Shown here: positions 5,264-34,579 of the stretch, piece after piece | How the letters are laid out: each line of letters opens with the position of its first letter | Numbering within the stretch: position 1 is the first letter of the stretch | DNA from: a virus | DNA length: 38,329 nucleotides | Direction: 5' to 3' (one strand) | UHGV virus genome: UHGV-1488451 | The notes under the pieces: generated by a model | Told to the model about the DNA's origin: nothing | Databases searched by the model: none | Seen by the model: the letters and a program-made list of their open reading frames with translations, nothing else | Program-made: the position numbers and the translations under genes

Positions 5264-5264
5264 T

Positions 5265-6749
5265 TTATTTTCCCTTCATGGTTTGGATTTGCTGTTGAAT
5301 GTTGGCGATGTCGCGCCGGGCGGCGGCGACACCATCCACGAGGGTGAGGTTTTCACCCTTCGAGTTCTGGCCCAACTGCGGCCAGGGGCCAAGCTGACCG
5401 CTGATGTATTCCACTTGTTGGATTAGTCGGTCAAGCTTTTTGTTGGTTTCCTGCGCCGCGACTTTGGCGTCGTTCAGCGCGGCGACTTGCTCATGTCCGA
5501 ATAGGGACACTGGTCCTCCTTTGATTTGGATGTTTGGGTTTGCGGGTGCGGTCGAGTAGGCGTAGCCCTTCGGCAGTATCAGCGAGGCCAGCTGGTCAAG
5601 GCTGATCCAGTAGCCGTATGGGCTGAACCATGAATCCGCTATCCACACGGCACGCCCCTGGTCACCGTCTCGATATCCCATTGCGGCAATGTAGTGGTAC
5701 ACCACGCCCCCGCCATAGGCTGGGGAGACGGAGCCGTACACGCCGCGCGGGTAGTTCGACGGTGGAGCAACGATGTTGCAGATGACACCATGACCAGCTT
5801 TGACTGAGGTTTTGATGTCGTTCCACAGGCGTTCCTGCTGGTCCGCCGTTGGTGGGTCATTAGGCATCTCTACTGACTGGTATTCAGCCCCTGGGATGTG
5901 TTTGTTCAGCACCTTCGGGAAGAACCCAATCCAGTCTGTGCCGTTGACTGTGGTGCCCAGCTCCACAGCGAAATCGCCTTCCGGCTTGAGAACACCGGTG
6001 GCGGCGAACACCACAGTCTGGGTGGATGCGGGCCCGCAATTGTAGTAGGTGTCCTGTACCACGGCCTCACGGCTGTAGGGGATTTCTACTTCTTCACCAG
6101 CCTGGTTGACCAGGGTTTCACCCGCGCCGCCGCCGGTTGAACCTTCAGGAAGCAGTGACTCCCCCAAGGTCAGGCAGAAGTCGAAGCGGCGTTGCCGGTC
6201 GTCGATTCCGTTGGTTCCTCCATTGATCGCGCGGGTTGCGGCTTTGAATCCTTCGTACCGCTGCCAGCCCTCTAGGTTCGGGTCTGCTGCCTGGTCAGCA
6301 AATTCATTGAGCAGTGGCCGAGCCACCACCCAGTACCAAGCAGCAGCCATGAATCCCCACTTCGGGGTGGCCACCAAATCCGGGTCATTCACAAACAGGT
6401 TCGGGTCGCTGGTGATTCCACGATCATGGCACCATCGACCGAACGACCCGTAGTTGTTCCGTCCCGTGAGCTGTATGGGGCCGCGACCATGGAAACGTGC
6501 ACCATCACCAGGGTAGACGTTGCCGAGATCGCCACGGCCCTCATAGTTGCTGGTGAAGTAGTCATACCCGCCAAGTTCCTGCATGAATTGCAGGCCCACG
6601 GACTCATGTCCGATCTGCGCGCACCACATTGCTGCGCGCGCCACGGTCGTGATGTCCGCGAACTTCATGGCTTCATTCATGGGTTGCACAAACGCCGAAT
6701 CGACGTTGGAACCCATTGCTCGGTTAAGTGTTCCTAGGTCCATATTCAC
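5265..6749 (-). CDS. Modular endolysin: N-terminal GH19 glycosidase domain plus central cysteine-peptidase-like domain
   Basis: GH19-like motifs FHGRGPIQLTGRNNYG and KWGFMAAAWYWV; YYNCGPAS with downstream His suggests a papain-like peptidase; likely start ATG 6743 after GAAAGGAG. Confidence 0.8.
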   Translation of the reverse strand: MNMDLGTLNRAMGSNVDSAFVQPMNEAMKFADITTVARAAMWCAQIGHESVGLQFMQELGGYDYFTSNYEGRGDLGNVYPGDGARFHGRGPIQLTGRNNYGSFGRWCHDRGITSDPNLFVNDPDLVATPKWGFMAAAWYWVVARPLLNEFADQAADPNLEGWQRYEGFKAATRAINGGTNGIDDRQRRFDFCLTLGESLLPEGSTGGGAGETLVNQAGEEVEIPYSREAVVQDTYYNCGPASTQTVVFAATGVLKPEGDFAVELGTTVNGTDWIGFFPKVLNKHIPGAEYQSVEMPNDPPTADQQERLWNDIKTSVKAGHGVICNIVAPPSNYPRGVYGSVSPAYGGGVVYHYIAAMGYRDGDQGRAVWIADSWFSPYGYWISLDQLASLILPKGYAYSTAPANPNIQIKGGPVSLFGHEQVAALNDAKVAAQETNKKLDRLIQQVEYISGQLGPWPQLGQNSKGENLTLVDGVAAARRDIANIQQQIQTMKGK

Positions 6750-13560: not shown

Positions 13561-16500
13561 CTATGTGAGAACAGTGGGCGCGCCACCAACATGACGCTCA
13601 CCCTTGATCTTTTTCAGGTCTTTGGTGTTCACCTCGACCTTGCCCTCCACAGCCTCCACACGCTGCCGCAGGACTTCCTCACCATCCACGTTCACCACCA
13701 GGGTTAGCTGACCACCATCGCCCTTATCGGCGATTTGTTTCAGCACACCCCACTGGTCGTTAGTGAGAATCGCTTCCGGCTTGCCGGACAGGTTCACCGC
13801 CGCACCCTCATGAGGCAGCACACCGCCCTGGTCATACAGGCGTGTACCACCACGGGCACGCTGACCAGCCCAACCAGCGAGGTTCACCAACCCGTGTGCC
13901 GCGTCGATGTCCTCCATCAGGCTAGCCAAACCACCAAACCCATCATCACCACCATTAAAAGCGGCACCGAGTTCACCCCACGCGGCACCAGCATCAGCGG
14001 CCTTGTTGACAAGGAACTTGGCGCGCTCCTCACCAACAACACCAGCTGTTGCGCCGTACCCGTAGTCGCCACCGTTGAAGGCGGTCGTGAACTCCTCGGC
14101 CACGTTCGCGGCCAGGCTGTTGCGCACCATGCGGCCGAAATTACCGGTGGCGTTCACCAGTGTTTTCGCGTGCGTGTCGCCGATCAGCTGGCCGAGCCCG
14201 CCGAAGCCGTCATCACCGCCGTGGAACGCTGTTGTGAGTTCTTCACGTGCAGCATCCACGGGGTTGATCTGCGGCCCTGTTGGGTTAATGTCCTGCGGGT
14301 TTTCCGGTTTTGCGTCGGCAACTGCGGCTGCGGCACCATCAACCCCGGAAGCAGCGGTGTTAGAATCGCCTGCCTGTTTGGCCTGCTCTTCTTCCTTCTT
14401 CTTCTGGTCGCGGGTGAACCAATCCGGTACAGGCGCAAGCTTGTCCGGTGGGGTTGTGGCCAGCTTCTTGATCAGGCCGTTTCCGCCGCCGATGAACTCG
14501 AAGAACGCGTCTTGTGCAAGTGCGTCCGGGGACTTGTTGCCAAGGGTTTTCCAGAACACTTCGTTGGCGATGCCAGCGCCGTAGGCCCCGGCGTCTTGCC
14601 AGCGTTTTACTTCGTTCTGGGCGTTGACGATTCCTTGGTGTGCGGCTAGTGCCGCGACTACTGCGGGGTGGTCTTCTTCGAGGTGGGTTGCGTCTGCGCC
14701 GAGGTATTCGCCGGTGTTGATGACGTGCATGAGTGCGTCTGCGGCTTGTTTCCAGGCTGCGGGGCCTTTGTTGCCGAGTTCGACGAGGGCTGGGATTGCG
14801 TTTCGGAGGTCTCCGAAGTTGCGTTCCAGCATGTCCCACTGTTCAGCGGTTAGGACAGCCTCTGGCTTTCCTGTGTGGTTCCAGTAGGTGCCGAACCCTC
14901 CTGGGGTGGGTTTGAGCCAGCCGCCGGAATCGTAGCCATGTCCATGACCCCACATTGTGGTCAAATCAGTGCCGTACCTGCTCTTGTAGTAGCGGAGCGC
15001 GGCGTTCATATTGGCCCACGGGTCACGCCTATCGTTCGGCAATTCGGGGTCACGGTTGGCTGCGAATGTGCCGGGGATGATCTGCAGCAAGCCAACGCCC
15101 GCACTGTCGCCAGTTCCGTTGACGTCGACAATCTGCTGTGCAATACCCGGGTTGCCACCAGACTCAGACTGAATCTGGGCCAGCATGGCGTTGACCTGCG
15201 CCGGGTCATCAGCATTAAAGCCTTGACGACGCATCGCGGCCATTGCCATTTCGCGCCACGACTCGGCATTACCAGCCACACCAGCGGCACCGGAGAAGGT
15301 GCCCACCTTCGACTTGATAAAGTCCCAAGCCTTGTCAGCGAGGGTTTTAGCGATAGCTCCGGGGAGCTTGCCGAAGTCGCCGTGCTGCTCCTTGCCTGGG
15401 AAGTCGCCGATCTTATTGATCGCCGCGTCCCACAGGCCCTTGACCATTGCTCCGAGGTTGAAGCCGCCACCGCCACCAGCGCCACCTGAAATGAACTCCC
15501 CAAGGAACTCCTTCAAAGTGTAGGTGTGGTTGAACAGGCTGTTATCGGAGCCACGTGCCGCACCGCCGATCTGCACGCCGTGATCGCCCGCCGATTCCAA
15601 GTTAACCCCGTCGATAGTGCCCGCCATGTGGCCGTTCTCGCCGCCGCCTTTGCCGGACAGCACGCCAATGGTCACGCGGCCAGACAAGCCGGGGACGAAC
15701 CCGAAGTTACCAAAGTTACTTTCGGTGTTGAAGATACGTCCTGCGCGCAGCGAACCGCCGTTCAGGAACTGCGTAATGCCTGACCACAGGCCCGAGCAAT
15801 CCCAGCTGGGGTTGCCGGTGCCCCCATACTGATAGGGCTTGCCGTGCTCAGATTTGAGTTCATTGAACAAGGCCGCAATGCGCTCAGTCAGGTGATCGCG
15901 CTGATCAGTGCCGCCATTAGGGAACACGCCGCCCTTAGCGAACGCAAGGGCACGGTACACGCCGCCGCGCGCGAACGCGGCACCCTCACCCAGCATCTTC
16001 TTGACGCGGCTCACGCCACCACCAATGGCGGCTTTGTTCAGCGCATCAACAGCAGGCTTACCGCCCATAGCCTTAGTGACCTCTGGGCGCATGATCGCCT
16101 CACCGCCGGACAAGCCAAGCAGCCCGCCAGTGGGGCTGTAGAAATGGTGAATATCCTTACCAGGACTGTAACCAGGCAGGACACCACCGGTTGCGAAATG
16201 ATGCTCTGGGAGTTCACCAAGGCCAACCAGCTTGGCCACCGTGTTCCAGGCTTTCCTGATGCCACCGTTGTAGACCGTGTTGACCACGAACTCAACAGGT
16301 TTTTTCGTCTTGTCCTTGATGCCGTCCCAGATGCGGCCGATATTATCGACGGTCTGACTGAACCAGTCTTTGACTTTCGTCAACCCGTCTTTCAGCCCGT
16401 TGAACACCGGGTGCACCACATTATCAGCAACCCAGCGTATGCCGTTGCCGAGGGCTTCCCACGTTGGTTTGATGTAGCCGTTCCAGATGCTGGAGAAGAA

Positions 16501-19500
16501 GTCCCCCAACGCCTGCAAACCGGCCTGCATCAGGTTCCACGTTGGTGTAACAACCGTGTCGAACACCCACTTGATGCCAGCGCCAAGACCGTTCCACACA
16601 GCCTTGATGAACTCGACCATCGGGTTAAACACATTGTTGGCCAGCCATGTGATTCCCGCGATCATTAAATCCCAGGTGGGTTTGATGATCGTGTCCCACG
16701 CGAATCGAATGGCAAGGCTCAGGCCGTCCCACTCGAATTTGATGAAACCGAAAATCGGCATGAGGACGTTGTTCCACATGAAGTTTGCCGCGCCTTGCAG
16801 CAAATCCCACGCGGGTTTAATCACGTTGTCCCAACCAGCTTTGATGCCCCATGACAGGGCTTCCCAGGCCAGCAGCAGCGGTGTCAGCACGATCGTTCCG
16901 ATCAGCGCCAGGCCAAACTTCGCCGCGTACTCCAACGCGTCCCACGCCGGTTTGATCAGCGTGTTCCACGCCCAGGCGATGCCAGCGGAAATAGCATTCC
17001 ACGTGTCACCCAGGAACTGGATACCAACACGCACAGCATCAGCCAAGTAGTTGCCCACCCATTGGATGACCACACCAACCACACTGATTAGCGGGTTGAA
17101 ACCATTGGTGATAATCCACGACAAAATGTTCGTGGCCTGCGACAAAATCCACGCTAATCCCTCAACGGCTTTCACCGCCCCAAGGATTGCGCCCACCACC
17201 ACGCCACCAACAATGATACCGATGGTTTGCAGCACCGGCATCAGCACCGGTTCAAGCAGGTTCCACAGCTGCACAAGCAGATTCCACAAGCCTTGCAGCG
17301 CACCCCACACAGCACCCGTGATCGTCTGGCCAAGACTATTCAAAGTCGTGGCCAAGGTCGTGACAGTGTTCCACAGGCTCGTGAAAGTGCCACTCAGCGA
17401 ATCCACAATTATGCCGCGAATCCACTCCATTGCATTACCGACGGTGGTGAAAGCATCAGCAATCATCTGCGCTTTGTCCGCGCCGAAAAGGGCGGTCAGC
17501 CCGCCGATGCCAGCATCATCGCCCTGGAACGCGGCGAACAGCTCACCAATGGATGCCTTCACATTCTGGAACGCAACGCCCATGCGCTCAGCAAAATCAA
17601 CAATCGCCTGGGCTTTATCAGCCCCGAAGATCGCCATGAGGCCACCAAACCCGGCGTCGCCGCCGTTGAAAGCCTCAGTGATTTCACCCCACGCGGCTTT
17701 CAGGTTGCTGAACAGAGTGAACACCGGCTGTAGGGCTTGCCCCATGAAGCTGGTGAACTCGCCCCAAATCCGCTTGCCCGTCTCGGTCTTCGTGAAGAAC
17801 AAGACCAGGGCACCAACAACGGCGGCTATGCCAGCGACAATCAAGCCTATGGGGTTGATCAGCATGGCTGTGTTCAAGCCCATTTGTGCGGCCGTGGCCT
17901 GCAAAGTGCCCGCGCGCTGCGCCGCAAGCAGGGCAGGCAAAACTTTCATCTGCGCTGCAAACGAACTAATCGCAGACACCGCAAACAAACCAGCCTGCGC
18001 CGCCCGCAAAGCAGCCATGCCAGCAACAACACCACCAACAGCGCCGCCAATAACAACCAGCAAATCCTTATTGCGGCCCAGCCACTCAGCCACAGCAGGA
18101 AGCTGATTAGTCAACGCGCCAATGGAGTTCCCCAGACGATCACCCCACGCCGAAAGCGTAGGCTCAGCCAAGGCGTACAGCTGCAGCTGCAAATCATCAA
18201 TCGCGTTTCCGATACGGTCCATCACACCATTCAGGCCAGCGAGCTTAGCCCCCGCAGTTTCACCAGCGGAGCCTTGCCGGTCGAGAGAAGCACGCAGCTT
18301 ATCAAACCCCTCGACACCACTGTTCGCCGCAGTAGTCGCAAACGATACAGCCTCACGCCCAAACGCGGTTGCAGCAGCGGCGGTAAACGCACTCTCACCC
18401 ATGCGGTCCTGCGCGGCCGCCAGCTGCGCGGTGATTTCCCGCATACCCACGAACTTGCCTTGCGCATCGAACGCATTGACACCCATCTCAGCAAGCGCCT
18501 TAGCGCCTTCTTTTGACGGGTTAGTAAGCGACAGCAACGCCGAACGCATCGCCGTACCAGCCTCGGAACCCTTGATGCCAAGGTTGGCGAACAAGCCAAG
18601 ATACGTACTCGCATCCTGCAAAGACACACCCAGAGTGGAGGCAATAGGTGCCGTGTACTTGATGGAGTCGCCTAGCTCAGTCAAGCCTGTAGCACTGTTA
18701 TTAGCGGTGTTAGTCAACACGTCAGCAACAAGTGACGCATCCTTAGCCGCCAGGTGGAAACCATTCAACGCCGCGATCTGAATATCAGCAGCAGTGCCAG
18801 CATCAACCTGAGCAGCACCCGCAAGCTGAATGGAACCCTTTGCCGCGTCCATAGCATCAGACACCGACAAACCACCCTTAGCCAACGCCAGCATCGCATC
18901 AGTAGCAGATGCGGCACTAGTGCCAGCCAGGGTTTCATCGTTGCCAAGGTCGCGGGCACGCTGCGACACCATCTTCATAGTGTCCCCAGTCGAACCCGTC
19001 ACAGCCTGCAACGACCCCATCACCTGCGACAGCTCACGGCCTTTACCAATGGCATCACCAAAAAACGCGGCACCACCAGCAACACCAAGACCACCAGCAA
19101 TAACCCCACCAAGACGACCAACCGTCCCCACAAGGGAACTAATCTTCCCGCCCACACTATCCACATCACCAGAAAGGCTCAGCGCCCAAGCCTTCGACTT
19201 CTCAGCCGCGCCAGTGAACGTGAAACCAGTCTTCTTAACCTGGTCCCCAACATGCCCAGCAGCCTCAGCAGCCTTACGCTGCGACGCTGCGGCGTCCTCC
19301 ATTGTGGCCTTGTACAGTTTCTCCTTGGCGCTCACCTGGTCGTTGGCGTTCGCTAAATCAACCTTAGCTTTCTTAAGCTCCCCCTCCGACTTCACCAAAG
19401 CAAGTGACGCACGGTCAGACTGGCGTTTAGCAGTCTCTAGCTCACGCTCCGCGCGCTGAACCTCCTTCGAGTCAGCGTCATTAGCGTTACGCGCGTCCTG

Positions 19501-20076
19501 AAGTTTCTTCTCCGCAGCCGCGACTTTCTCATTAGCTGCGGCGACTTTATCCCGCTGCTCCCCCACAGCAAGATCAGCGGCCTTTACCTTCCCCGATGCC
19601 TCAGCTGCGGCAATACGAGCCTTCCCAAGGTTATCCTCAGTACGTGCCACCTGAGCCGCGGTTGCGACGCCGCCCTCACGAATAGCCTTAAGGTCAGTCT
19701 CACCACGTGCGACCTGGGCGGTAGCCTGATCAAGCTTGGCTTTGGCCACTGCCGCATCAGACTCCGCGCGCGCCACCTGCGACGCCGTGGCCGTGCTGCT
19801 GTTACGCGCCTGCTGCAGTCGCTCCTCAGCCACCGCAACATCCTGCGCCGCCTGCGCCTCAGCCTTACGGGCCGCAGCAACCACGCGGGTTTGCTTCTCG
19901 ACGCCCTCAGCCAGCGCGGCACCGGCGTTCTGGCCGGACTTCTCAAAGCTCTTCTCGATCAGGGCGCCAGCATCATCAGCAGCCTTCGACGCGCCCTTCA
20001 CCACCTCAGCGGCGAAACCACGCATCGAAGCATTAACCGGAACCCACACAGTAGACGCCACCGCGCCACACTCCAA
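13561..20076 (-). CDS. Tail tape measure protein with embedded NlpC/P60-like peptidase and SLT-like lytic transglycosylase domains
   Basis: 2171 aa; N-terminal coiled coil, Gly/Ala TM-like stretches, W-rich periodic repeats, motif WDCSGLW (about 15784-15804) and QSESGG...GVGLLQIIPGTF (about 15071-15099). Confidence 0.9.
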   Translation of the reverse strand: MECGAVASTVWVPVNASMRGFAAEVVKGASKAADDAGALIEKSFEKSGQNAGAALAEGVEKQTRVVAAARKAEAQAAQDVAVAEERLQQARNSSTATASQVARAESDAAVAKAKLDQATAQVARGETDLKAIREGGVATAAQVARTEDNLGKARIAAAEASGKVKAADLAVGEQRDKVAAANEKVAAAEKKLQDARNANDADSKEVQRAERELETAKRQSDRASLALVKSEGELKKAKVDLANANDQVSAKEKLYKATMEDAAASQRKAAEAAGHVGDQVKKTGFTFTGAAEKSKAWALSLSGDVDSVGGKISSLVGTVGRLGGVIAGGLGVAGGAAFFGDAIGKGRELSQVMGSLQAVTGSTGDTMKMVSQRARDLGNDETLAGTSAASATDAMLALAKGGLSVSDAMDAAKGSIQLAGAAQVDAGTAADIQIAALNGFHLAAKDASLVADVLTNTANNSATGLTELGDSIKYTAPIASTLGVSLQDASTYLGLFANLGIKGSEAGTAMRSALLSLTNPSKEGAKALAEMGVNAFDAQGKFVGMREITAQLAAAQDRMGESAFTAAAATAFGREAVSFATTAANSGVEGFDKLRASLDRQGSAGETAGAKLAGLNGVMDRIGNAIDDLQLQLYALAEPTLSAWGDRLGNSIGALTNQLPAVAEWLGRNKDLLVVIGGAVGGVVAGMAALRAAQAGLFAVSAISSFAAQMKVLPALLAAQRAGTLQATAAQMGLNTAMLINPIGLIVAGIAAVVGALVLFFTKTETGKRIWGEFTSFMGQALQPVFTLFSNLKAAWGEITEAFNGGDAGFGGLMAIFGADKAQAIVDFAERMGVAFQNVKASIGELFAAFQGDDAGIGGLTALFGADKAQMIADAFTTVGNAMEWIRGIIVDSLSGTFTSLWNTVTTLATTLNSLGQTITGAVWGALQGLWNLLVQLWNLLEPVLMPVLQTIGIIVGGVVVGAILGAVKAVEGLAWILSQATNILSWIITNGFNPLISVVGVVIQWVGNYLADAVRVGIQFLGDTWNAISAGIAWAWNTLIKPAWDALEYAAKFGLALIGTIVLTPLLLAWEALSWGIKAGWDNVIKPAWDLLQGAANFMWNNVLMPIFGFIKFEWDGLSLAIRFAWDTIIKPTWDLMIAGITWLANNVFNPMVEFIKAVWNGLGAGIKWVFDTVVTPTWNLMQAGLQALGDFFSSIWNGYIKPTWEALGNGIRWVADNVVHPVFNGLKDGLTKVKDWFSQTVDNIGRIWDGIKDKTKKPVEFVVNTVYNGGIRKAWNTVAKLVGLGELPEHHFATGGVLPGYSPGKDIHHFYSPTGGLLGLSGGEAIMRPEVTKAMGGKPAVDALNKAAIGGGVSRVKKMLGEGAAFARGGVYRALAFAKGGVFPNGGTDQRDHLTERIAALFNELKSEHGKPYQYGGTGNPSWDCSGLWSGITQFLNGGSLRAGRIFNTESNFGNFGFVPGLSGRVTIGVLSGKGGGENGHMAGTIDGVNLESAGDHGVQIGGAARGSDNSLFNHTYTLKEFLGEFISGGAGGGGGFNLGAMVKGLWDAAINKIGDFPGKEQHGDFGKLPGAIAKTLADKAWDFIKSKVGTFSGAAGVAGNAESWREMAMAAMRRQGFNADDPAQVNAMLAQIQSESGGNPGIAQQIVDVNGTGDSAGVGLLQIIPGTFAANRDPELPNDRRDPWANMNAALRYYKSRYGTDLTTMWGHGHGYDSGGWLKPTPGGFGTYWNHTGKPEAVLTAEQWDMLERNFGDLRNAIPALVELGNKGPAAWKQAADALMHVINTGEYLGADATHLEEDHPAVVAALAAHQGIVNAQNEVKRWQDAGAYGAGIANEVFWKTLGNKSPDALAQDAFFEFIGGGNGLIKKLATTPPDKLAPVPDWFTRDQKKKEEEQAKQAGDSNTAASGVDGAAAAVADAKPENPQDINPTGPQINPVDAAREELTTAFHGGDDGFGGLGQLIGDTHAKTLVNATGNFGRMVRNSLAANVAEEFTTAFNGGDYGYGATAGVVGEERAKFLVNKAADAGAAWGELGAAFNGGDDGFGGLASLMEDIDAAHGLVNLAGWAGQRARGGTRLYDQGGVLPHEGAAVNLSGKPEAILTNDQWGVLKQIADKGDGGQLTLVVNVDGEEVLRQRVEAVEGKVEVNTKDLKKIKGERHVGGAPTVLT

Positions 20077-20867
20077 TCAGATTTCAAGACTCTTCAAATA
20101 CGCAAGTGCCTCCTCCTGGGTGTGATCACCCAGGGAACCAATGCGTGAAGAATTAGCGTTCTTAATCTCCGACCACGGATAGGCAGGTGTTTCTTCGGCC
20201 GGCATTTTTGCTTTGCTGTTTCCGTTCACGCGGGCCAGCAAAACCTGTGTTTCCCACGTCGCCCACAACAGCCGCCACAACAGGGAGTCGGTAATGCCGT
20301 AGGGCTTGCCGTCGGTTTGATGCCAACGCGCCGGGGAATCCTTAGGCAGGTTCTCAACAAGGACGCGGAGTTTCCGCAAGGTGATCTCACCCCGCCAGAA
20401 CTCCGCCATAACATCCCTGTGGTACGCCTGCTCTAGTGACGCTTCGAGGACTTCCGCGCCACCGCACGACGCTGCAAGCGATTCAACGGTGAAGATTTTC
20501 CCTCACTGTTGACAGCCTCCATAGCTTTGCGATGCTCAGCGAACACCAAGCCCCACAGAGACGACGAGCCACCAGCCTCGAGGAACCGGTCGTACTCTTC
20601 CTCACCCATGAACCAGGCACACAAATCAGGCCCGTACTCTGGCAGGTCATTCAGCTCATCCAACTGGGCATCATTCAGGAACATCGGGTCAGCGAAAGTA
20701 AAGGTTTCACCCTTGAATGTGAAGGCGATACGGTCACCCTCAATGCCGGTGGCTTCCTTCCGCTGAGCGATCAAAGTATCCAAATCATAGGACATGGCAG
20801 ACCCCTTCCAAAGTCTCACAAGCAGGCCAAACAACAAAAGGTTGGTGGGGGCGGGCCTGCCAAACAC
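20077..20867 (-). CDS. Tail assembly chaperone GT-type fusion product made by programmed -1 frameshift at 20496-20502
   Basis: Zero frame ends ...NSEGKSSPLNRLQRRAVARKSSKRH at 20433; the -1 frame opens right after a TGA exactly at heptamer G_GGA_AAA and runs to the tape measure start. Confidence 0.6.
20433..20867 (-). CDS. Tail assembly chaperone (G-like, zero-frame product)
   Basis: 144-aa acidic protein immediately upstream of tape measure. Confidence 0.7.
   Translation of the reverse strand: MFGRPAPTNLLLFGLLVRLWKGSAMSYDLDTLIAQRKEATGIEGDRIAFTFKGETFTFADPMFLNDAQLDELNDLPEYGPDLCAWFMGEEEYDRFLEAGGSSSLWGLVFAEHRKAMEAVNSEGKSSPLNRLQRRAVARKSSKRH
20496..20502 (-). promoter_or_regulatory. Slippery heptamer GGGAAAA (X_XXY_YYZ) for -1 ribosomal frameshifting
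   Basis: Plus strand reads ttttccc; on minus strand the zero-frame codons are gaG GGA AAA. Confidence 0.6.
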
Positions 20868-20888
20868 TCCCCCACCACCACCTAAAAT

Positions 20889-20915
20889 GCTGGCCTTTGA
20901 TAACCCGGGGCCAGC
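20889..20915 (-). terminator. Stem-loop (GCTGGCC / GGCCAGC) followed by a T-run on minus strand, downstream of major tail gene
   Basis: 7-bp perfect stem, 13-nt loop, then ATTTTA on minus strand. Confidence 0.4.
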
Positions 20916-20947
20916 AAGAAACCGGGGATTCGAACAACAATCAGACG

Positions 20948-21895
20948 CTAAGCATCAGCAATGACAAGCTGCAGTTTCTGCGTCGCAGTGCGCTTTTTAC
21001 CATCCTCCACCTTGAAGGTGATCTCAGTGGTACTAGCAGCCGTCGGGCTGCCCGTGATCTTGCCGTCCTTGTTCAGACTCAGGCCAGCGGGCAGGGCGGG
21101 CGTGCCGTCAACAGACCAGTTGTAGGGGGCCTCACCACCAAGTGCAGCAAGGGTGACGGAATACTCCTGGCCCTTCGTGCCAGCAGGCAGCTGCTGGGTC
21201 TGCACCTTAAGCGGCACAGCACCATCATCAGATGAAGACGTGGCGCCCTTAGCGCCGGAACCATCCCAGCCAGCGGAGAACAGCCACCGCGCGGTCTTGC
21301 CGGACAGCTGCTGATCTGCGTATTCCTTGCCAGCGGGGAAACCAGTCAGGGTGATTTCCAGGCCGATAGCGTCTTCACGCTTGAACGTCATGCCGGAGCG
21401 GCCGGTAACCTGAGCATCAAGCAGGGTGATGCGCATGGCCTTGTCGCCGTCAACGACGTCGAGCACGCACTGTTGGTGCTCAAACTCAGGCAGGTTGCCT
21501 TCATCGAAGTACCAGGAACCGTCGTCGTTGACCTTGATCTGACCACCGGGGACACCAAAGTACAGGCTCGCGTTGTCACGCGTGAACTGCCACAGAGTGA
21601 CCTTGATTGCCTTCACAGACTTCGTGATGTCACGACGAATAGGCAGGGCCTCCTGCCACGGAATGAACTCGTTAGTGTCCTCGTCGAAACTGATTTCCAC
21701 ACCATCCGGGCTGATGTAACCACGGTTCAGGTAGATGCTGGTGTCGTACTTTTCCTTGAAATCGGTCATGACTTTGGTGCCGATTGCTGCGGTTCGCAGC
21801 GCACCGGTGACACCGACGCGCAGGGCGGCGGCTTCGAATCCTTCGAGGGTTGCCTGTTCGGCCATTTGTTTTCCTCCTGTTGCGGAATGCCCCAC
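20948..21895 (-). CDS. Major tail protein with C-terminal Ig-like domain
   Basis: C-terminal LPAGTKGQEYSVTLAALGGEAPYNWSVDGTPALPAGLSLNKDGKITG resembles putative bacterial Ig-like domains; likely start ATG 21865 after GGAGG. Confidence 0.75.
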   Translation of the reverse strand: MGHSATGGKQMAEQATLEGFEAAALRVGVTGALRTAAIGTKVMTDFKEKYDTSIYLNRGYISPDGVEISFDEDTNEFIPWQEALPIRRDITKSVKAIKVTLWQFTRDNASLYFGVPGGQIKVNDDGSWYFDEGNLPEFEHQQCVLDVVDGDKAMRITLLDAQVTGRSGMTFKREDAIGLEITLTGFPAGKEYADQQLSGKTARWLFSAGWDGSGAKGATSSSDDGAVPLKVQTQQLPAGTKGQEYSVTLAALGGEAPYNWSVDGTPALPAGLSLNKDGKITGSPTAASTTEITFKVEDGKKRTATQKLQLVIADA

Positions 21896-21932
21896 CCGGG
21901 TTTCGGATGGGGCGTAGATTTGCTTACTTTCT

Positions 21933-28943: not shown

Positions 28944-29232
28944 CGGCCGCCTTCATACGCTCCATCACCGAAACAACCGCCACAGGGCGGTCACGGTCCT
29001 CAGGAATTCCCCGCGCCTCCGGCGTGCACCCCAACGCCCCCAACGCCTTCAACAAATGAGGCCCCAAATACAACGCCTTTGTGCGGTCATACCCAGCATC
29101 AACAGGCACGAAATCAATCTGCCGAGCATACGACAGCGCCAGCTCCTGCAATGCCTTATCTGCACCGGTGACGTTCTCGCCACGCGCCTCAATTGAATCA
29201 AGTACAGCCTGTTCAAGCGGCCCAACAGTCAT
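28924..29232 (-). CDS. Putative terminase small subunit
   Basis: About 103 aa from ATG 29232 (GGAAGGAG upstream); overlaps start of large terminase; assignment by position only. Confidence 0.4.
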   Translation of the reverse strand: MTVGPLEQAVLDSIEARGENVTGADKALQELALSYARQIDFVPVDAGYDRTKALYLGPHLLKALGALGCTPEARGIPEDRDRPVAVVSVMERMKAAGGGRAG

Positions 29233-29364
29233 GATTAAAGCTCCTTCCAGAAACCAGGTCTTGCGCGCGCGATACCCCCAAAAACGAGTGGGGGGAGAGG
29301 ACAGGCCCACCCGGCTCAAATGTCCTGGTCAGGTGTGCTGGTGATTTGCTACCCCCTACCGTTG

Positions 29365-29649
29365 TTACCAGGTTTGGCTGGGTTGTCCGAGGGTTGGTTG
29401 GGGTGGTTGGTTGTGGCGTGCGCGGTTGCAGTTGGTGTGTGTTGGTTTGATGTTGTTGGGGTCGTTTTCGAGGTGTGGGTGTGTGCTTGTGGGGTGGATG
29501 TGGTCGAGGTCGCATGCGTTTGGGGTGTGTGGTGGTGCGGTGTAGTCGATTGGTTGGCCGCAGAGGTAGCAGGGGGTGTTGTTTTCTGCGTGTTGTTGGC
29601 GGAGTTGTTGGCGGAGTTTTTTGTTTGCGCGGGTTTCTTTGAATGGCAT
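29365..29649 (-). CDS. HNH endonuclease
   Basis: CYLCGQPIDY...CDLDHIHP...HLENDPNNIKPTHTNCN (two Cys pairs, H-N-H); adjacent to terminase genes. Confidence 0.8.
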   Translation of the reverse strand: MPFKETRANKKLRQQLRQQHAENNTPCYLCGQPIDYTAPPHTPNACDLDHIHPTSTHPHLENDPNNIKPTHTNCNRARHNQPPQPTLGQPSQTW

Positions 29650-29676
29650 GGGGTTTTGGGGGTTGATATGGGTAAA

Positions 29677-29700
29677 CCCCCATGCTTTTTGGCATGGGGG
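29677..29700 (-). terminator. Strong GC hairpin (CCCCCATGC / GCATGGGGG) upstream of HNH gene
   Basis: 9-bp perfect stem, 6-nt loop; only short T-runs flank it, so terminator versus attenuator role is unclear. Confidence 0.3.
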
Positions 29701-31238: not shown

Positions 31239-32426
31239 TCAAAACGGGGGTTTTGCGGCGTTGGAATTGCCGAACCATACACGACTACCCGCCGAGGGGT
31301 TTTCGGGCGTGTGAGGCGGCAATGAGGGCGGATTTGGGGCATTCTCGTTTCGTCTGGCCGCCCGGAGTTGAGCGTATTCCGGTGGGAGGTCCACCGGCTC
31401 GGGGGGTGTCCGATGGTCGCATTTGCGGGCTACGCTGCGGTTTTCCGGCGAATCCGGGTCGATTCCTCGGGTCGGGACCAGGACAAAACCCCGCTCGTCG
31501 CACCACGGGCAAGCGTCGATTTCGGCGCGTCGTGCCTGCTTGGCTTGGGTTTTCTGGTCCTGGAACCAGCGTCTGGCGGCTGCGCAGGCCCCGCAGGGTG
31601 GCACCTGGTCGCGTGGCAGCCCGGCGTGTTCGCGGCATCGGGGGTCATCCGGCGTGGACCAATCGGCGGGTGTGTCGCCGGTCACGGTTGGGGTGTTGGG
31701 GGGCGGCGCGTCAGCGGCCGCCGAACCCTGGTCGAAACTCGGGGCGGGGGCGTGTGCGCTTGCGCTCTCGCTCGGAAGATTTTCTCTCTTAAGCTCCCCT
31801 TTATTGGTATTGGTCGGGCGCAGGTCCGGGCGCGCGCGTCGCGCGCGAGGAGTGGACATGCGGGTGGCGTCCGGGGTGGACATTTCGGCGTTTTCGCTGG
31901 TAGAGGAAAAATCGCTCGACCTATTCGGATTCATTTCGTTTTCATTTCGATTTCGATTCGCGTTCGATTCGGATTCATTTCGATTTCGATTCGGATTCAT
32001 TTCGCGTTCGGATAGGTCGAGCCTCCCTGTTTCAGTATCGGCGTTGCAGCCCCTCCTGCGGGCCTTTGACTCGCGTTCAATACGGCGTCGATTCGAGCGT
32101 TGTTCGCGGGTCTGCTGATAGTCCCCCCAGTCCCTAAAAGTGAACACGATCACACCATTTTCATTGACTGATTGCGTCCACAACCCCGCATCAACAAGCG
32201 CCTGAATCTGAACCGCGCTCCCCCGCAAAGCCCGCACCTGCTGACGAGGAATCACCCCATCAGTCTCAAATTCAGCGCACCAACTCCCAGCCTTCGCCCA
32301 TAAACCCACCGCAGCATTAGGAAGGGAGGAAATCTTAGGATGCGCATGAAAACGGTCGTCAATCATGAACCAGCTCATTACGCACCGAGTCCAACATTCA
32401 AGCAGACAACACTGATTGACCTGCAC
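31239..32426 (-). CDS. Replication initiation (O-like) protein candidate with internal iteron-encoded low-complexity linker and C-terminal Cys cluster
   Basis: N-terminal folded-looking domain, central NPNRNRNESESNANRNRNENEMNPNR linker encoded by the tandem repeats, C-terminal CGAC...CPWC; start uncertain (32426 GTG, 32378 or 32366 ATG). Confidence 0.5.
   Translation of the reverse strand: MQVNQCCLLECWTRCVMSWFMIDDRFHAHPKISSLPNAAVGLWAKAGSWCAEFETDGVIPRQQVRALRGSAVQIQALVDAGLWTQSVNENGVIVFTFRDWGDYQQTREQRSNRRRIERESKARRRGCNADTETGRLDLSEREMNPNRNRNESESNANRNRNENEMNPNRSSDFSSTSENAEMSTPDATRMSTPRARRARPDLRPTNTNKGELKRENLPSESASAHAPAPSFDQGSAAADAPPPNTPTVTGDTPADWSTPDDPRCREHAGLPRDQVPPCGACAAARRWFQDQKTQAKQARRAEIDACPWCDERGFVLVPTRGIDPDSPENRSVARKCDHRTPPEPVDLPPEYAQLRAARRNENAPNPPSLPPHTPENPSAGSRVWFGNSNAAKPPF
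31914..32020. repeat. Iteron-like array: about 8 tandem copies of an 11-bp unit (nnTTCnnTTCG family) flanked by imperfect inverted repeats; candidate origin of replication
   Basis: Seen directly: GATTCATTTCG / TTTTCATTTCG / ATTTCGATTCG / CGTTCGATTCG ...; 11-bp period; flanks CTCGACCTATTCGGA and TTCGGATAGGTCGAG. Confidence 0.5.
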
Positions 32427-32590: not shown

Positions 32591-33028
32591 TTAGAACGGA
32601 GGTTCGCCCGTATCCTGCGGGGTGGCCGGGGGTGAAGAACCCCACGCGCCCCCCTGCTGAGAAGGCGCATACCCAGGGCGCGCCTGCGAACCAGCAACCT
32701 CAACATCAGCCACAGACTGCAACGCATCAACCGCCATGACCTTAATCATCGACCGTTGACTACCGTCCTTGGCTTCCCACTCCTCAGTGACCAGCTTTCC
32801 AACCACCGTGACCTTAGAACCCTTCCTCAGGTAGGACATTGGTTCAGCAGCCTCACCCCACAAGGTGACTTGGATGAACAACTGGTTTGTGGTCTCCCAC
32901 TCACCAGTCGGGGTTTTCCTGCTGTCGGAGCACGCGAGGCGGAAGGTGCTGCATGGTTTGCCGTTGGAGGTGAACCGGAGTTCAGGGTCGCTGACCAGTC
33001 TTCCGGGGAAATGCTGGTACGGAATCAT
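32591..33028 (-). CDS. ssb: Single-stranded DNA-binding protein
   Basis: N-terminal GRLVSDPELRFTSNGKPCSTFRLA (OB-fold SSB signature), Gly/Gln-rich tail ending in acidic-aromatic tip EPPF. Confidence 0.85.
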   Translation of the reverse strand: MIPYQHFPGRLVSDPELRFTSNGKPCSTFRLACSDSRKTPTGEWETTNQLFIQVTLWGEAAEPMSYLRKGSKVTVVGKLVTEEWEAKDGSQRSMIKVMAVDALQSVADVEVAGSQARPGYAPSQQGGAWGSSPPATPQDTGEPPF

Positions 33029-33894
33029 GGCATGCCTCCCTCGGCTTCGGCCGCGAGGGCTTCCATCTCAGCAAGGGTGTTGTAGCGCTCACTGTAGGCG
33101 TGCTCTGCGGCTTCGCGCTGCGGGTGATCGGCGGGGATTCCCCTGGCTTGCTCGGCCACCGTGTTCAGGTCGTCGATGCTGGCTGCGGTGTTGAATGCCG
33201 CGATGATGCTGTCAACGTCGATCTGTGGTGCCTGCTTGGATTCGAGGGCGGCTTTCACGCCTGAGGCGCCGCGCTGCTGGCGGGGCTTGTCGAGGCGTGT
33301 GGCCTTGGCCTGCACGCGGCTTTCCTCGAGCTGCAAATCCTCAGCCGTGTAGGTGATTCCCAACAACACGTCGGGGGCCAGTTTGCGGCACACCTCGGAT
33401 AGTGCCTTGGCGTAAAGCATGGCTTGCGGGTCGCTTTGGTACTTCTTGTTTGAGGTGTAGCCTGCACGCTTTGCCCGGTCGATGGTCCATGTACTGGTTT
33501 CCTGCTCACCCTTCGGCGAGGTTCCAGTCACCGTGACGCTTTCATCTGTGGACTCAATGGTGTCAAACCTGTAGCCGCGCGCCTTCAAAAGCCCAGACAT
33601 AGTGCGCGCGTAGATCGCGGGTGTGCCGTGCACAACGAAAATCTGCTGCAGGGACTGCAGGGGCTTCAACCCCAATTCAGCACCGTAGAGTATTGCCGCT
33701 GCTCCGTTTTCCGGCTTGCCCTTGTAGGTCTGTGGCACCATGTCGGTGCTGCACAATGCCACCGCTAGTTTGTGGGCGGTTTCCATTGCCTGTGCTTGCC
33801 GCATTAGCAGGTCTATGGCGTCGTCACTGACGTCGCCGGTGGGCATTACCTCAGCCTCGGCGGGTGGGGTGATGCGGTCGATTTCCTGGCTCAC
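33025..33894 (-). CDS. recT: RecT-like single-strand annealing protein
   Basis: NGAAAILYGAELGLKPLQSLQQIFVVHGTPAIYA resembles the RecT family core; paired with YqaJ-like exonuclease. Confidence 0.7.
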   Translation of the reverse strand: MSQEIDRITPPAEAEVMPTGDVSDDAIDLLMRQAQAMETAHKLAVALCSTDMVPQTYKGKPENGAAAILYGAELGLKPLQSLQQIFVVHGTPAIYARTMSGLLKARGYRFDTIESTDESVTVTGTSPKGEQETSTWTIDRAKRAGYTSNKKYQSDPQAMLYAKALSEVCRKLAPDVLLGITYTAEDLQLEESRVQAKATRLDKPRQQRGASGVKAALESKQAPQIDVDSIIAAFNTAASIDDLNTVAEQARGIPADHPQREAAEHAYSERYNTLAEMEALAAEAEGGMP

Positions 33895-34322
33895 TGGTTG
33901 CCCTCCTTATTGGGGTTTACGACGTAGATTTCGTAGCCTCGGCCGTAGAACCCGTTGTCTTCGTAGCCTTTGGCGGTGATGATTTCGGTGGCCTTGACTT
34001 CAGACTCTGCCCACACGAACACTCGAACGATGTGGTCGCCGATTGCGTTGTAATCCTGGGTGAGGTCTTCTTCGGCGATCTTCACGCCGGTGATTGCATG
34101 GTCGTAGGGCGCAAGGCGGCTTATCCACCAGTTCCCCGCGCTGCAGCCTCCGCAGCCCTCGTTGCCTACGGTGTAAAGTCGGACACCGTTGTCGAGGATG
34201 AGGGCTTCATCGTCGTCATCGACTTCAACGATTTTACGGCCGATGAGAAGTTCTTTGAGGTCTTCGAGGCTTTCACCATCGATTTTCTTATCCCAGTCGC
34301 CTTCGTAGTGGTTGAAGGTCAT
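33891..34322 (-). CDS. Hypothetical protein
   Basis: 143-aa ORF; contains GCGGCSAGNWW; no recognised family. Confidence 0.45.
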   Translation of the reverse strand: MTFNHYEGDWDKKIDGESLEDLKELLIGRKIVEVDDDDEALILDNGVRLYTVGNEGCGGCSAGNWWISRLAPYDHAITGVKIAEEDLTQDYNAIGDHIVRVFVWAESEVKATEIITAKGYEDNGFYGRGYEIYVVNPNKEGNQ

Positions 34323-34579
34323 TGTTCAAGCTCCTTTGCTTCCGTAATGCCGTCTTTGGTGAGCAGGTGGGTTACACCACGGGGGTGGTTGTCCATGTTG
34401 ATTGCGGCGGGCTGGAAAATCCCCACCCATTCGCCGCTTATGTGCTTTTTCACCAGGTCTTGGCACTGCATGTACGTTTCGGCCTGCACCGCCAAGATCA
34501 TGTCAGGGTGGGCGGGCGCCCACTCAGGGTGCGTGTTTTTACGGTACTTCTCGTGAAATATCACGTAAAGGGTTTTCAT
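34319..34579 (-). CDS. Hypothetical protein
   Basis: 86-aa ORF, translationally coupled to neighbours. Confidence 0.4.
   Translation of the reverse strand: MKTLYVIFHEKYRKNTHPEWAPAHPDMILAVQAETYMQCQDLVKKHISGEWVGIFQPAAINMDNHPRGVTHLLTKDGITEAKELEQ

What the first reader, a model, noticed from the sequence alone, without database searches (positions are those of the whole stretch)
20433..20520. Canonical -1 programmed frameshift site in the tail assembly chaperone
The zero-frame chaperone ORF contains heptamer G_GGA_AAA (plus-strand ttttccc at 20496-20502) 62 nt before its stop. The -1 frame is closed by a TGA immediately upstream of the heptamer and open from the heptamer to the tape measure start at 20077. 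This matches the conserved G/GT frameshift of long-tailed phages and would add about 135 aa.
Basis: partly seen in the sequence, partly recalled or inferred. Interest (0 to 1): 0.55.

Follow-up and report, generated by a model that had tools for sequence, protein, structure and literature searches.

The report
Phage tail chaperone -1 frameshift site
This is the ordinary, well-known programmed -1 ribosomal frameshift that long-tailed phages use to make a short and a long tail assembly chaperone from one gene, here in an uncultivated, probably Corynebacterium-type prophage where gene callers had missed it.

Summary
On the minus strand a 120-aa ORF (20795-20433) sits between the major tail protein gene and the tape measure gene. 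It holds G_GGA_AAA (20502-20496) in the X_XXY_YYZ register, 61 nt before its TAG. The -1 frame has a TGA immediately 5' of the heptamer and then runs open for 141 codons to a TGA at 20079-20077.

The conceptual 239-aa fusion matches PHROG 8183 (tail assembly chaperone) end to end (E 1.4e-56). In all 95 related loci where both halves could be located, the downstream part is in the -1 frame. Five of six annotated relatives examined carry a joined CDS. The closest relatives have the identical heptamer at the identical distance from the stop.

The ATG at 20409, which a gene caller used, aligns with a non-start codon in 59 of 78 relatives, and conserved -1-frame sequence lies upstream of it.

I found no downstream stimulatory RNA structure.

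Minor corrections: the tape measure gene probably starts at GTG 20061, not 20077, and the shift swaps 20 residues for 139.

Verdict: a real G/GT-type frameshift, a new member of a well-known kind, of low interest.

One aside: most of the wider family lacks a canonical heptamer and conserves CGC_CCT_ACN one codon downstream.

The parts
20433..20795 (-). Gene G. This is the zero-frame tail assembly chaperone ORF of 120 aa, from ATG 20795 to TAG 20435-20433.
   Evidence: Translation is. It matches phrog_5010 (tail assembly chaperone) over its full length at E 1.4e-29. The identical protein is called on a JGI metagenome contig.
20496..20502 (-). The slippery heptamer G_GGA_AAA. GGA sits in the P site and AAA in the A site. 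After a -1 slip the two tRNAs re-pair with GGG and AAA. Gly-Lys is encoded in both frames.
   Evidence: Shown. It is the only X_XXY_YYZ in the 70-nt overlap and the only in-register one in the window with a long -1 extension. It is invariant in six independent assemblies (L007, L023-L027). G_GGA_AAA/C/T is present at the homologous site in 29 non-redundant relatives.
20503..20505 (-). A TGA in the -1 frame immediately 5' of the heptamer. It sets the 5' limit of the window in which a productive shift can occur.
   Evidence: (the list of stops in the -1 frame).
20436..20502 (-). The G/T overlap, the stretch where both frames are open. With the G stop codon included it is 70 nt. It is the only place where a -1 shift can yield the fusion.
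20077..20502 (-). The T segment: the -1 frame read from the heptamer (GGG AAA ATC ...) to TGA at 20079-20077. That is 141 codons, 139 of them new after Gly-Lys.
   Evidence: Translation is. The fusion matches phrog_8183 end to end at E 1.4e-56. The motif WRGEITLRKLRVL and the upstream ESL..EA.EA.L..Y are conserved across 78 non-redundant relatives.
20407..20409 (-). An internal ATG in the T frame. The JGI gene caller used it as the start of a separate 110-aa gene. It is probably not the functional start.
   Evidence: The JGI gene table is. The aligned codon is a non-start codon in 59 of 78 relatives, and conserved T-frame peptide lies upstream of it.
20516..20520 (-). GGAGG, a Shine-Dalgarno-like pentamer 13 nt 5' of the heptamer. 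It could be an upstream stimulator of the -1 shift. This is unproven.
   Evidence: The sequence is shown. It is not conserved in position or sequence among relatives, so it may be incidental.
20948..21895 (-). The upstream neighbour, the major tail (tube) protein gene, with a C-terminal Ig-like domain.
   Evidence: It matches PF25681 Phage_TTP_17 at E 1e-17 and PF05345 He_PIG at E 1.4e-12. It also matches phrog_476 and phrog_117, major tail protein.
13561..20061 (-). The downstream neighbour, the tape measure protein gene. The probable start is GTG 20061. The ORF is open from 20076.
   Evidence: The ORF is listed. JGI's Pfam marks are PF10145 PhageMin_Tail and SLT. The start was chosen by comparing the N-terminus with annotated relatives and by the GGAG 9 nt upstream.

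Best explanation
This is a programmed -1 ribosomal frameshift of the lambda G/GT type.

Most ribosomes translating the chaperone mRNA on the minus strand read straight through and stop at TAG 20435-20433. That gives the 120-aa chaperone G. A minority pause with tRNA-Gly on GGA in the P site and tRNA-Lys on AAA in the A site. Both tRNAs slip back one base and re-pair with GGG and AAA. Translation then continues in the -1 frame to TGA 20079-20077 and gives a 239-aa GT fusion. GT has the same first 100 residues as G and a different 139-residue C-terminal T domain.

By analogy with lambda, the shared G part binds the tape measure protein. The T domain recruits the major tail protein. The fixed low GT:G ratio set by the slip frequency is needed for correct tail assembly. 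Neither protein ends up in the virion.

Shown here: the frames, the heptamer and its register, the gene order, homology of G and of the fusion to tail assembly chaperone families, and conservation of the -1 architecture and the slip position.

Inferred: that the shift really happens, how efficient it is, and what the two domains do.
For: Frames and register:
- Frames, heptamer and register were verified.

Homology and gene order:
- The fusion protein matches phrog_8183 (tail assembly chaperone) over 2-237 of 239 aa at E 1.4e-56.
- G alone matches phrog_5010 at E 1.4e-29.
- The neighbours are the major tail protein and the tape measure protein, in the canonical order.

Relatives:
- tblastn finds 116 phage records, each matching in two frames.
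- Five of six relatives examined are annotated with a joined two-piece CDS.
- In 95 of 95 related loci from phages, prophages and uncultivated viral genomes, T is in the -1 frame of G.
- G_GGA_AAA/C/T lies at the homologous position, 55-61 nt before the G stop, in 29 non-redundant relatives. The nearest clade (Corynebacterium phage IME1320_01 and Corynebacterium prophages) has the same heptamer and the same 61-nt distance.

Nucleotide-level constraint:
- When the Gly at this column is followed by AAN, its codon is GGA in 32 of 35 cases, 28 of them preceded by G. Otherwise it varies freely: GGT 6, GGC 5, GGG 4, GGA 6.
- GGA makes up only 7.8% of Gly codons in the window.

Uniqueness and reproducibility:
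- It is the only in-register slippery heptamer in the window with a long -1 extension.
- Six independent metagenome assemblies share the same frames and heptamer, which excludes an assembly indel.

Against independent initiation of T:
- The window's ATG 20409 aligns with a non-start codon in 59 of 78 relatives.
- The T-frame peptide upstream of it is conserved. This holds even in Streptomyces-type relatives whose G ORF stops 19-31 nt into the overlap, so that stretch is not also constrained by the G frame.

Literature:
- Lambda uses GGGAAAG, encoding Gly-Lys in both frames, with about 4% shifting (PMC3296357).
- gpG and gpGT are needed at about 30:1. G binds the tape measure, T binds the major tail protein, and the arrangement is widely conserved (PMC5009743).
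- 2,397 joined tail assembly chaperones are annotated in 3,679 SEA-PHAGES genomes (PMC10885494).
Against: - There is no direct evidence of the fusion protein.
- No downstream stimulatory structure was found. Fold z-scores were -0.26, +0.54 and 0.0. The consensus fold of 12 relatives gave only 3 invariant pairs and no covariation. No Rfam family matched.
- The heptamer by itself is not over-represented in the window.
- An ATG (20409) with a weak purine-rich stretch (CAGGGA) 4 nt upstream exists in the T frame. Some independent initiation of a shorter T-only product cannot be excluded in this particular phage.
- Most of the wider family (42 of 76) does not use a canonical heptamer at all. Conservation of the heptamer therefore rests on a subset of related, non-independent lineages.
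Confidence: 0.9

Rival explanations
1. There are two separate genes and no frameshift. The downstream ORF is translated on its own from ATG 20409 as a 110-aa protein, as the JGI gene caller has it. The heptamer is there by coincidence.
For: JGI calls a separate 110-aa gene. Corynebacterium phage IME1320_01 is likewise annotated as two hypothetical proteins. A purine-rich CAGGGA lies 4 nt upstream of the ATG. GGGAAAA is not rare in the window.
Against: - The aligned codon is CTC, ATC, GTC or another non-start codon in 59 of 78 non-redundant relatives.
- About 29 conserved T-frame residues (ESL..EA.EA.L..Y..DV) lie upstream of the ATG and would be lost.
- The same residues are conserved in relatives where no G frame overlaps them.
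- The full fusion, not the 110-aa piece, matches phrog_8183 end to end.
- The -1 relation holds in 95 of 95 loci.
Confidence: 0.05
2. The fusion is made, but by a different route. Either RNA polymerase slips on the A run, or the ribosome shifts elsewhere in the 70-nt overlap.
For: Transcriptional slippage is a documented route to frameshifted products in other systems (PMC5009743, whose title and text cover it). No stimulatory RNA structure marks the heptamer.
Against: - The run is only A4 preceded by G3. From general knowledge, productive transcriptional slippage needs far longer homopolymers.
- No other X_XXY_YYZ or X_XXY motif occurs in the overlap in the zero-frame register (and direct reading of the codons).
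- Relatives keep a slippery motif at this exact spot, not elsewhere.
Confidence: 0.03
3. It is an artefact or a decayed gene. A sequencing or assembly indel, or a real frameshift mutation, split one chaperone gene, and the downstream part is not expressed.
For: None beyond the bare fact of two frames.
Against: Six independent assemblies from at least four samples have the same frames. The same -1 architecture occurs in 95 of 95 relatives across several actinobacterial genera. The downstream frame is strongly conserved as protein.
Confidence: 0.01

Closest known systems
Bacteriophage lambda G/GT programmed -1 frameshift (Levin, Hendrix and Casjens 1993; Xu, Hendrix and Duda 2004, 2013, 2014; reviewed in PMC5009743)
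   Same: - The position is the same, between the major tail gene and the tape measure gene.
- A short ORF is overlapped at its 3' end by a -1 ORF.
- The heptamer G_GGA_AAN encodes Gly-Lys in both frames. Lambda has GGGAAAG (PMC3296357) and the window has GGGAAAA.
- No stimulatory RNA structure was found here. From memory, lambda is the same in this respect.
- The longer product shares the N-terminal G part.
   Different: - There is no detectable sequence similarity to lambda gpG or gpT. Membership rests on PHROG families of actinophage chaperones.
- The last base of the heptamer is A, not G.
- The heptamer lies 61 nt before the G stop. In lambda the stop is described as immediately downstream (PMC3296357).
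- The host is a high-GC Gram-positive bacterium, whose tRNA-Lys set differs from that of E. coli.
Annotated tail assembly chaperone frameshifts of SEA-PHAGES actinobacteriophages (Gordonia phages Archimedes, Ghobes and Fairfaxidum; Corynebacterium phage Adelaide; Gordonia phage Gsput1 'pre-TMP frameshift protein'); PHROGs 5010 and 8183
   Same: They are homologous proteins, with 37-49% identity over the whole fusion. The architecture is the same -1 arrangement with joined CDS features. The slip position is the same to within one codon.
   Different: Those phages use G_GGA_AAC overlapping A_AAC_CCT, or A_AAC_CCT alone in Adelaide. The window and its nearest clade use G_GGA_AAA and have lost the CCT codon. 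The window's own lineage is not in the phage collection at the DNA level. Its nearest deposited relative, IME1320_01, is annotated without the frameshift.
E. coli dnaX -1 frameshift (A_AAA_AAG with an upstream Shine-Dalgarno-like stimulator and a downstream hairpin)
   Same: It is a tandem -1 slip with a Lys codon in the A site. The window has GGAGG 13 nt 5' of the heptamer. From memory of Larsen et al. 1994, that is within the spacing range reported to stimulate -1 shifting.
   Different: There is no downstream hairpin here. The GGAGG is not conserved in relatives. In dnaX the -1 frame stops almost at once, giving the shorter gamma product, whereas here the -1 frame adds a 139-residue domain.

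Membership tests
G/GT-type tail assembly chaperone frameshift (Xu, Hendrix and Duda 2004) | The two ORFs lie between the major tail protein gene and the tape measure gene, on the same strand. | tested here: met
   The major tail protein gene is at 20948-21895(-), with PF25681 and phrog_476/117. G is at 20795-20433. T runs to 20077. The tape measure gene runs from about 20061 to 13561, with PF10145 marked by JGI.
G/GT-type tail assembly chaperone frameshift (Xu, Hendrix and Duda 2004) | The downstream ORF overlaps the 3' end of the upstream ORF in the -1 frame (rarely +1). | tested here: met
   The overlap is 70 nt and T is in the -1 frame. The same holds in 95 of 95 related loci.
G/GT-type tail assembly chaperone frameshift (Xu, Hendrix and Duda 2004) | There is a slippery sequence in the correct register inside the overlap. 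| tested here: met
   G_GGA_AAA at 20502-20496 has zero-frame codons GGA AAA. It is the only such site in the overlap.
G/GT-type tail assembly chaperone frameshift (Xu, Hendrix and Duda 2004) | The downstream segment has no conserved translation start of its own, and conserved coding sequence runs back to the slip site. | tested here: met
   ATG 20409 aligns with a non-start codon in 59 of 78 relatives, and the T-frame peptide is conserved from the slip site onward. Caveat: an ATG does exist in this phage, so minor independent initiation is not excluded.
G/GT-type tail assembly chaperone frameshift (Xu, Hendrix and Duda 2004) | Both products (G and GT) are made, in a fixed ratio, and both are needed for tail assembly. 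| not testable with these tools
   This needs proteomics, reporter assays or genetics. The lambda values (about 30:1, about 4% shifting) come from PMC5009743 and PMC3296357.
PHROG tail assembly chaperone families 5010 (G) and 8183 (GT fusion) | There is a significant full-length profile match. | tested here: met
   G matches phrog_5010 over 1-117 against 2-116/117 at E 1.4e-29. The fusion matches phrog_8183 over 2-237 against 3-259/259 at E 1.4e-56. There is no Pfam family and no sequence relative with a solved structure.
Canonical stimulated -1 PRF (slip site plus a downstream hairpin or pseudoknot 5-9 nt away) | There is a stable, conserved RNA structure just 3' of the heptamer. | tested here: not met
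   Fold z-scores were -0.26, +0.54 and 0.0 against shuffles. RNAalifold on 12 relatives gave 3 invariant pairs and no covariation. There was no Rfam match. Pseudoknots were not searched explicitly.

The most novel reading that the evidence does not exclude
The window's canonical G_GGA_AAA may be a lineage-specific replacement of a different, non-canonical slip site used by most of this chaperone family.

- 42 of 76 non-redundant relatives have no X_XXY_YYZ in the overlap.
- They keep zero-frame CGC_CCT_ACA/ACT/ACG one codon downstream. These are uncommon codons held almost invariant.
- That pattern fits a -1 slip of P-site tRNA-Pro alone (CCU to CCC) while a slowly decoded Thr codon waits in the A site.
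- Gordonia phages carry both motifs overlapped, as G_GGA_AAC_CCT_AC.

The family would then document turnover between mechanistically different slip sites at a fixed position. A smaller possibility is that the GGAGG 13 nt upstream acts as a dnaX-like stimulator in this phage.
Probability: 0.35. Interest if true: 0.35.

Novelty: new member of a known kind. Interest (0 to 1): 0.15.

Why it matters
It matters mainly for annotation. In this uncultivated phage lineage, and in its nearest deposited relative IME1320_01, automatic gene calling splits the chaperone into a 120-aa gene and a truncated 110-aa gene. The 239-aa GT product, which is probably essential for tail assembly, is therefore missing from protein catalogues.

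Biologically it adds one more case to a textbook phenomenon. The only mildly wider interest is the comparative picture: three kinds of slip motif alternate at one position across Corynebacterium, Gordonia, Pseudonocardia and Streptomyces phages. That could be used to study non-canonical -1 slippage in high-GC Gram-positive hosts.

Tried and rejected
- A megablast of 19500-21900 against deposited phages found nothing. The relatives had to be found at the protein level.
- Pfam has no family for G or for the fusion.
- A profile search against PDB sequences gave only noise, with E about 0.4. I did not attempt a fold-level comparison, because family membership was already clear from PHROGs and from annotated homologues.
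- I searched for a downstream stimulatory structure in three ways: single-sequence folds with shuffle controls, a consensus fold of 12 relatives and Rfam. All were negative. Pseudoknots were not searched explicitly.
- Enrichment of GGGAAAA in the window: none.
- The upstream GGAGG as a conserved stimulator: rejected as a family feature because relatives lack it at that spacing. It is kept only as a possibility for this phage.
- A paper search for Corynebacterium phage chaperone frameshifts found nothing.
- The terminator scan did not pick up the hairpin between the major tail gene and G, because its loop exceeds the scanner's limit. It appears only in the MFE fold, and the region as a whole is not unusually stable (z -0.14).
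- In my first printout of relatives lacking a heptamer the frame labels were swapped. The line ending in '*' is the G frame. The later tabulations use the correct register.

Full report
**1. The observation**

Read on the minus strand, an ORF starts at ATG 20795 and ends at TAG 20435-20433 (120 aa). The plus-strand TTTTCCC at 20496-20502 is GGGAAAA on the coding strand. The zero-frame codons are GGA (20501-20499) and AAA (20498-20496), so the register is G_GGA_AAA, the X_XXY_YYZ form.

The -1 frame has TGA at 20505-20503, directly 5' of the heptamer. It then stays open for 141 codons to TGA at 20079-20077. Sixty-one nucleotides separate the heptamer from the zero-frame stop codon. A slip at the heptamer would give a 239-aa protein. 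Residues 1-100 are shared with G, and 139 residues are read in the -1 frame in place of G's last 20.

It gave 62 nt where 61 is correct, and 'about 135 aa' where 139 is correct. It also placed the tape measure start at 20077, which is in fact the last base of the T-frame stop codon.

The tape measure gene most likely starts at GTG 20061. GGAG lies 9 nt upstream, and the N-terminus VASTVWVPVNA matches the annotated starts of four relatives.

**2. Is it more than chance?**

The heptamer alone is not special. GGGAAAA occurs 5 times in the window against 7.3 expected from shuffles.

The context is what counts. I built a rough gene set of 43 ORFs and scanned about 11,968 codons. I found 47 in-register X_XXY_YYZ sites, or 0.39% per codon. 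That predicts about 0.09 in a 23-codon overlap.

Only the site at 20502 leads into a -1 frame that runs far past the zero-frame stop. It extends 119 codons, and the next best values are 29, 7 and 6. GGA is the rarest Gly codon in the window, at 86 of 1,109 (7.8%).

**3. What the genes are**

- The upstream neighbour (20948-21895, minus) is a major tail tube protein with a C-terminal Ig-like domain. It matches PF25681 at E 1e-17 and PF05345 at E 1.4e-12, and phrog_476/117.
- Further upstream come the tail terminator, head-closure and adaptor proteins, major capsid protein, protease, portal and large terminase.
- Downstream is a tape measure ORF of about 2,170 aa (PF10145 in JGI's table).
- After that come minor tail proteins, endolysin, holin and an integrase.

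The window is a temperate siphovirus genome with 57.3% G+C.

G matches phrog_5010 (tail assembly chaperone) over its full length at E 1.4e-29. The conceptual frameshift fusion matches phrog_8183 (tail assembly chaperone) from residue 2 to 237 against profile positions 3-259 of 259, at E 1.4e-56. A profile built from other phages' joined products therefore recognises the fusion as one protein.

**4. Relatives**

No deposited phage is close at the DNA level. At the protein level the fusion finds 116 phage records: Gordonia 84, Corynebacterium 30 and Arthrobacter 2. Every one matches as two pieces in two frames.

Of six relatives inspected, five carry a two-piece joined CDS named tail assembly chaperone or 'pre-TMP frameshift protein'. 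The nearest, Corynebacterium phage IME1320_01 (49% identity), is annotated as two hypothetical proteins.

Scans of bacterial genomes and of IMG/VR gave 93 more loci:

- five uncultivated viral genomes 99% identical to the window, from several metagenomes. One has a 7000000-series sample number, which I take from memory to be a Human Microbiome Project sample;
- prophages in Corynebacterium, Tomitella, Pseudonocardia and Streptomyces;
- one locus in a Candidatus Avipropionibacterium MAG.

The identical G protein is also on a JGI metagenome contig, where the gene caller lists a 120-aa and a separate 110-aa gene.

In all 95 loci where both halves could be located, the T part is in the -1 frame of G.

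**5. The slip site across the family**

Among 76 non-redundant loci, the slip motifs at the homologous position are:

| Motif | Loci |
|---|---|
| G_GGA_AAA (the window's clade and the IME1320_01-like Corynebacterium prophages, always 61 nt before the G stop) | 11 |
| G_GGA_AAC overlapping A_AAC_CCT | 15 |
| G_GGA_AAC alone | 1 |
| G_GGA_AAT | 1 |
| A_AAC_CCT without the G-run | 4 |
| No canonical heptamer, only zero-frame C_CCT_ACN one codon downstream (41 as C_CCT_ACA/ACT/ACG, 1 as C_CCT_ATT) | 42 |
| None of these | 2 |

In 39 of the 42, the codon before CCT is CGC.

Nucleotide-level constraint on the heptamer is visible:

- Where the conserved Gly is followed by AAN, its codon is GGA in 32 of 35 cases, 28 of them preceded by G. 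Two of the three exceptions are mis-anchored.
- Where it is followed by another codon, the Gly codon varies freely (GGT 6, GGC 5, GGG 4, GGA 6).

The 99%-identical genomes differ from the window at positions just 3' of the heptamer (TCT to TAT, CCG to CGG) but not within it. These lineages are related, so the counts are not independent events.

**6. The main rival: independent translation of T**

The T frame has an ATG at 20409, which JGI used. A weak purine-rich stretch lies 4 nt upstream.

Aligned on the invariant WRGEITLRKLRVL motif, that position is ATG or GTG in only 19 of 78 non-redundant relatives. It is CTC, ATC, GTC, CTG, CTT, GCC or TTA in the other 59.

The T-frame peptide between the slip site and that position (ESL.A...EA.EA.L..Y..DV) is conserved across the family. 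This includes Streptomyces-type relatives in which G stops only 19-31 nt into the overlap. In those, the stretch is constrained as T-frame protein alone and is not a by-product of G-frame conservation.

A start at 20409 would remove about 29 conserved residues. I rate this rival at about 5%.

Transcriptional slippage is unlikely because the run is only A4. An assembly artefact is excluded by six concordant assemblies.

**7. Stimulatory elements**

- Folds of the 3' region are no more stable than dinucleotide shuffles, with z of -0.26, +0.54 and 0.0.
- A consensus fold of 12 diverse relatives gives three invariant pairs and no covariation.
- No Rfam family matches.

This does not count against the model. 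[quoted passage not shown] From my own recollection of Levin et al. 1993, which I did not read here, the lambda site needs no such structure.

A GGAGG lies 13 nt 5' of the heptamer (20520-20516). As I recall it from the dnaX literature, that spacing can stimulate -1 shifting. Relatives do not conserve it, so I list it only as a possibility.

**8. Mechanism**

Shown here: the frames, the register, the gene order, the homology, and conservation of the architecture and slip position.

Inferred from lambda (PMC5009743, PMC3296357):

- Most ribosomes make G.
- A few percent slip -1 with tRNA-Gly on GGA and tRNA-Lys on AAA, which re-pair to GGG and AAA. Gly-Lys is encoded in both frames, exactly as in lambda's GGGAAAG.
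- The G part binds the tape measure protein and the T domain recruits the major tail protein.
- The ratio fixed by the slip frequency (about 30:1 in lambda) is needed for tail assembly.
- Neither product is in the virion.

**9. Comparison and novelty**

This works like lambda G/GT. It meets every sequence-level criterion of the conserved frameshift described by Xu, Hendrix and Duda (2004, cited in PMC10885494 and PMC5009743).

Its proteins belong to actinophage chaperone families that are already annotated with the frameshift in many SEA-PHAGES genomes. PMC10885494 counts 2,397 joined chaperones in 3,679 genomes.

What is new is only the instance. This is an uncultivated phage lineage. Its host is probably a Corynebacterium-like actinobacterium, which I infer from the nearest prophages and from the G+C content. 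In this lineage, and in its nearest deposited relative, the frameshift is not annotated.

I class it as a new member of a known kind, with low interest (0.15).

**10. Side observation**

Most of the wider family appears to shift at a non-canonical site, CGC_CCT_ACN. In long ORFs of those loci, CCT is about 20% of Pro codons and ACA plus ACT about 14.5% of Thr codons. At the site, CCT is found in 42 of 42 loci and ACA or ACT in 38 of 42.

That pattern fits a -1 slip of P-site tRNA-Pro alone (CCU to CCC) while a slowly decoded A-site codon waits. Gordonia phages carry this motif overlapped with G_GGA_AAC.

PRFect's authors note that most annotated overlaps lack X_XXY_YYZ (PMC10885494). I did not find this particular motif described, but I did not search for it exhaustively.

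The codon-usage background was taken from crude long ORFs, and the loci are phylogenetically related. This is a lead, not a result.

Noticed in passing
Related loci L008-L012, L015, L017-L022, L029, L030, L038, L062-L100 (G/T overlap, about position 3300-3400 of each locus). The homologous window position is 20495-20487.: 42 of 76 non-redundant relatives have no X_XXY_YYZ heptamer in the overlap. They conserve zero-frame CGC_CCT_ACA (29), _ACT (7) or _ACG (3) one codon 3' of the window's heptamer. CCT and ACA/ACT are minority codons there (20% and 14.5%) yet nearly invariant at the site. This suggests a P-site-only -1 slip of tRNA-Pro with a slow A-site codon. Gordonia phages carry both motifs overlapped, as G_GGA_AAC_CCT_AC.
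   Followed up: partly
window 20516-20520 (minus strand): A GGAGG lies 13 nt 5' of the slippery heptamer. It is Shine-Dalgarno-like, at a spacing that stimulates -1 shifting in E. coli dnaX (from memory). It is not conserved in relatives.
   Followed up: partly
window 20829-20882 (minus strand), in the 152-nt gap between the major tail gene stop (20948) and the G start (20795): A GC-rich hairpin (GGTGGTGGTGGGGG ... CCCCCACCAACC) is followed by TTTTGTTGTTT. It may be an intrinsic terminator or attenuator lowering expression of the chaperone and tape measure genes relative to the major tail protein. It appears in the MFE fold but not in the simple terminator scan, because its loop is 17 nt. The region as a whole is not unusually stable (z -0.14).
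   Followed up: partly
window 20025-20076 (minus strand): The start of the tape measure gene is ambiguous. The ORF opens at TTG 20076 and JGI calls ATG 20025. GTG 20061, with GGAG 9 nt upstream, gives an N-terminus (VASTVWVPVNA) that matches the annotated starts of four relatives.
   Followed up: yes
window 20948-21895 (minus strand): The major tail protein carries a C-terminal Ig-like domain (PF05345 He_PIG, residues 230-312) fused in frame. From memory, in some phages such Ig domains are added by a second programmed frameshift. That is not the case here.
   Followed up: no
window 5268-5274 (minus strand): A second in-register G_GGA_AAA forms the last two sense codons of the endolysin ORF (5265-6749). 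The -1 frame runs only 9 codons, 7 past the stop, so it is very likely incidental.
   Followed up: partly
window 29213-29695 (minus strand): In-register C_CCA_AAA (29660) and A_AAC_CCG (29636) lie near the start of a 160-aa ORF with no PHROG match. The -1 frame is open for about 100 codons but ends before the zero-frame stop. This may simply mean the wrong one of two overlapping ORFs was picked in my crude gene set.
   Followed up: no
window 1-38329: The window looks like a near-complete temperate siphovirus: integrase 3011-4135(+), an HTH protein 1161-1535(+), holin and endolysin 4916-6749(-), RecT-like and RecE-like genes 33025-35586(-), and a replication initiator 31239-32426(-). There are no tRNA genes and no Rfam matches. 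Copies 99% identical occur in several metagenomes.
   Followed up: partly
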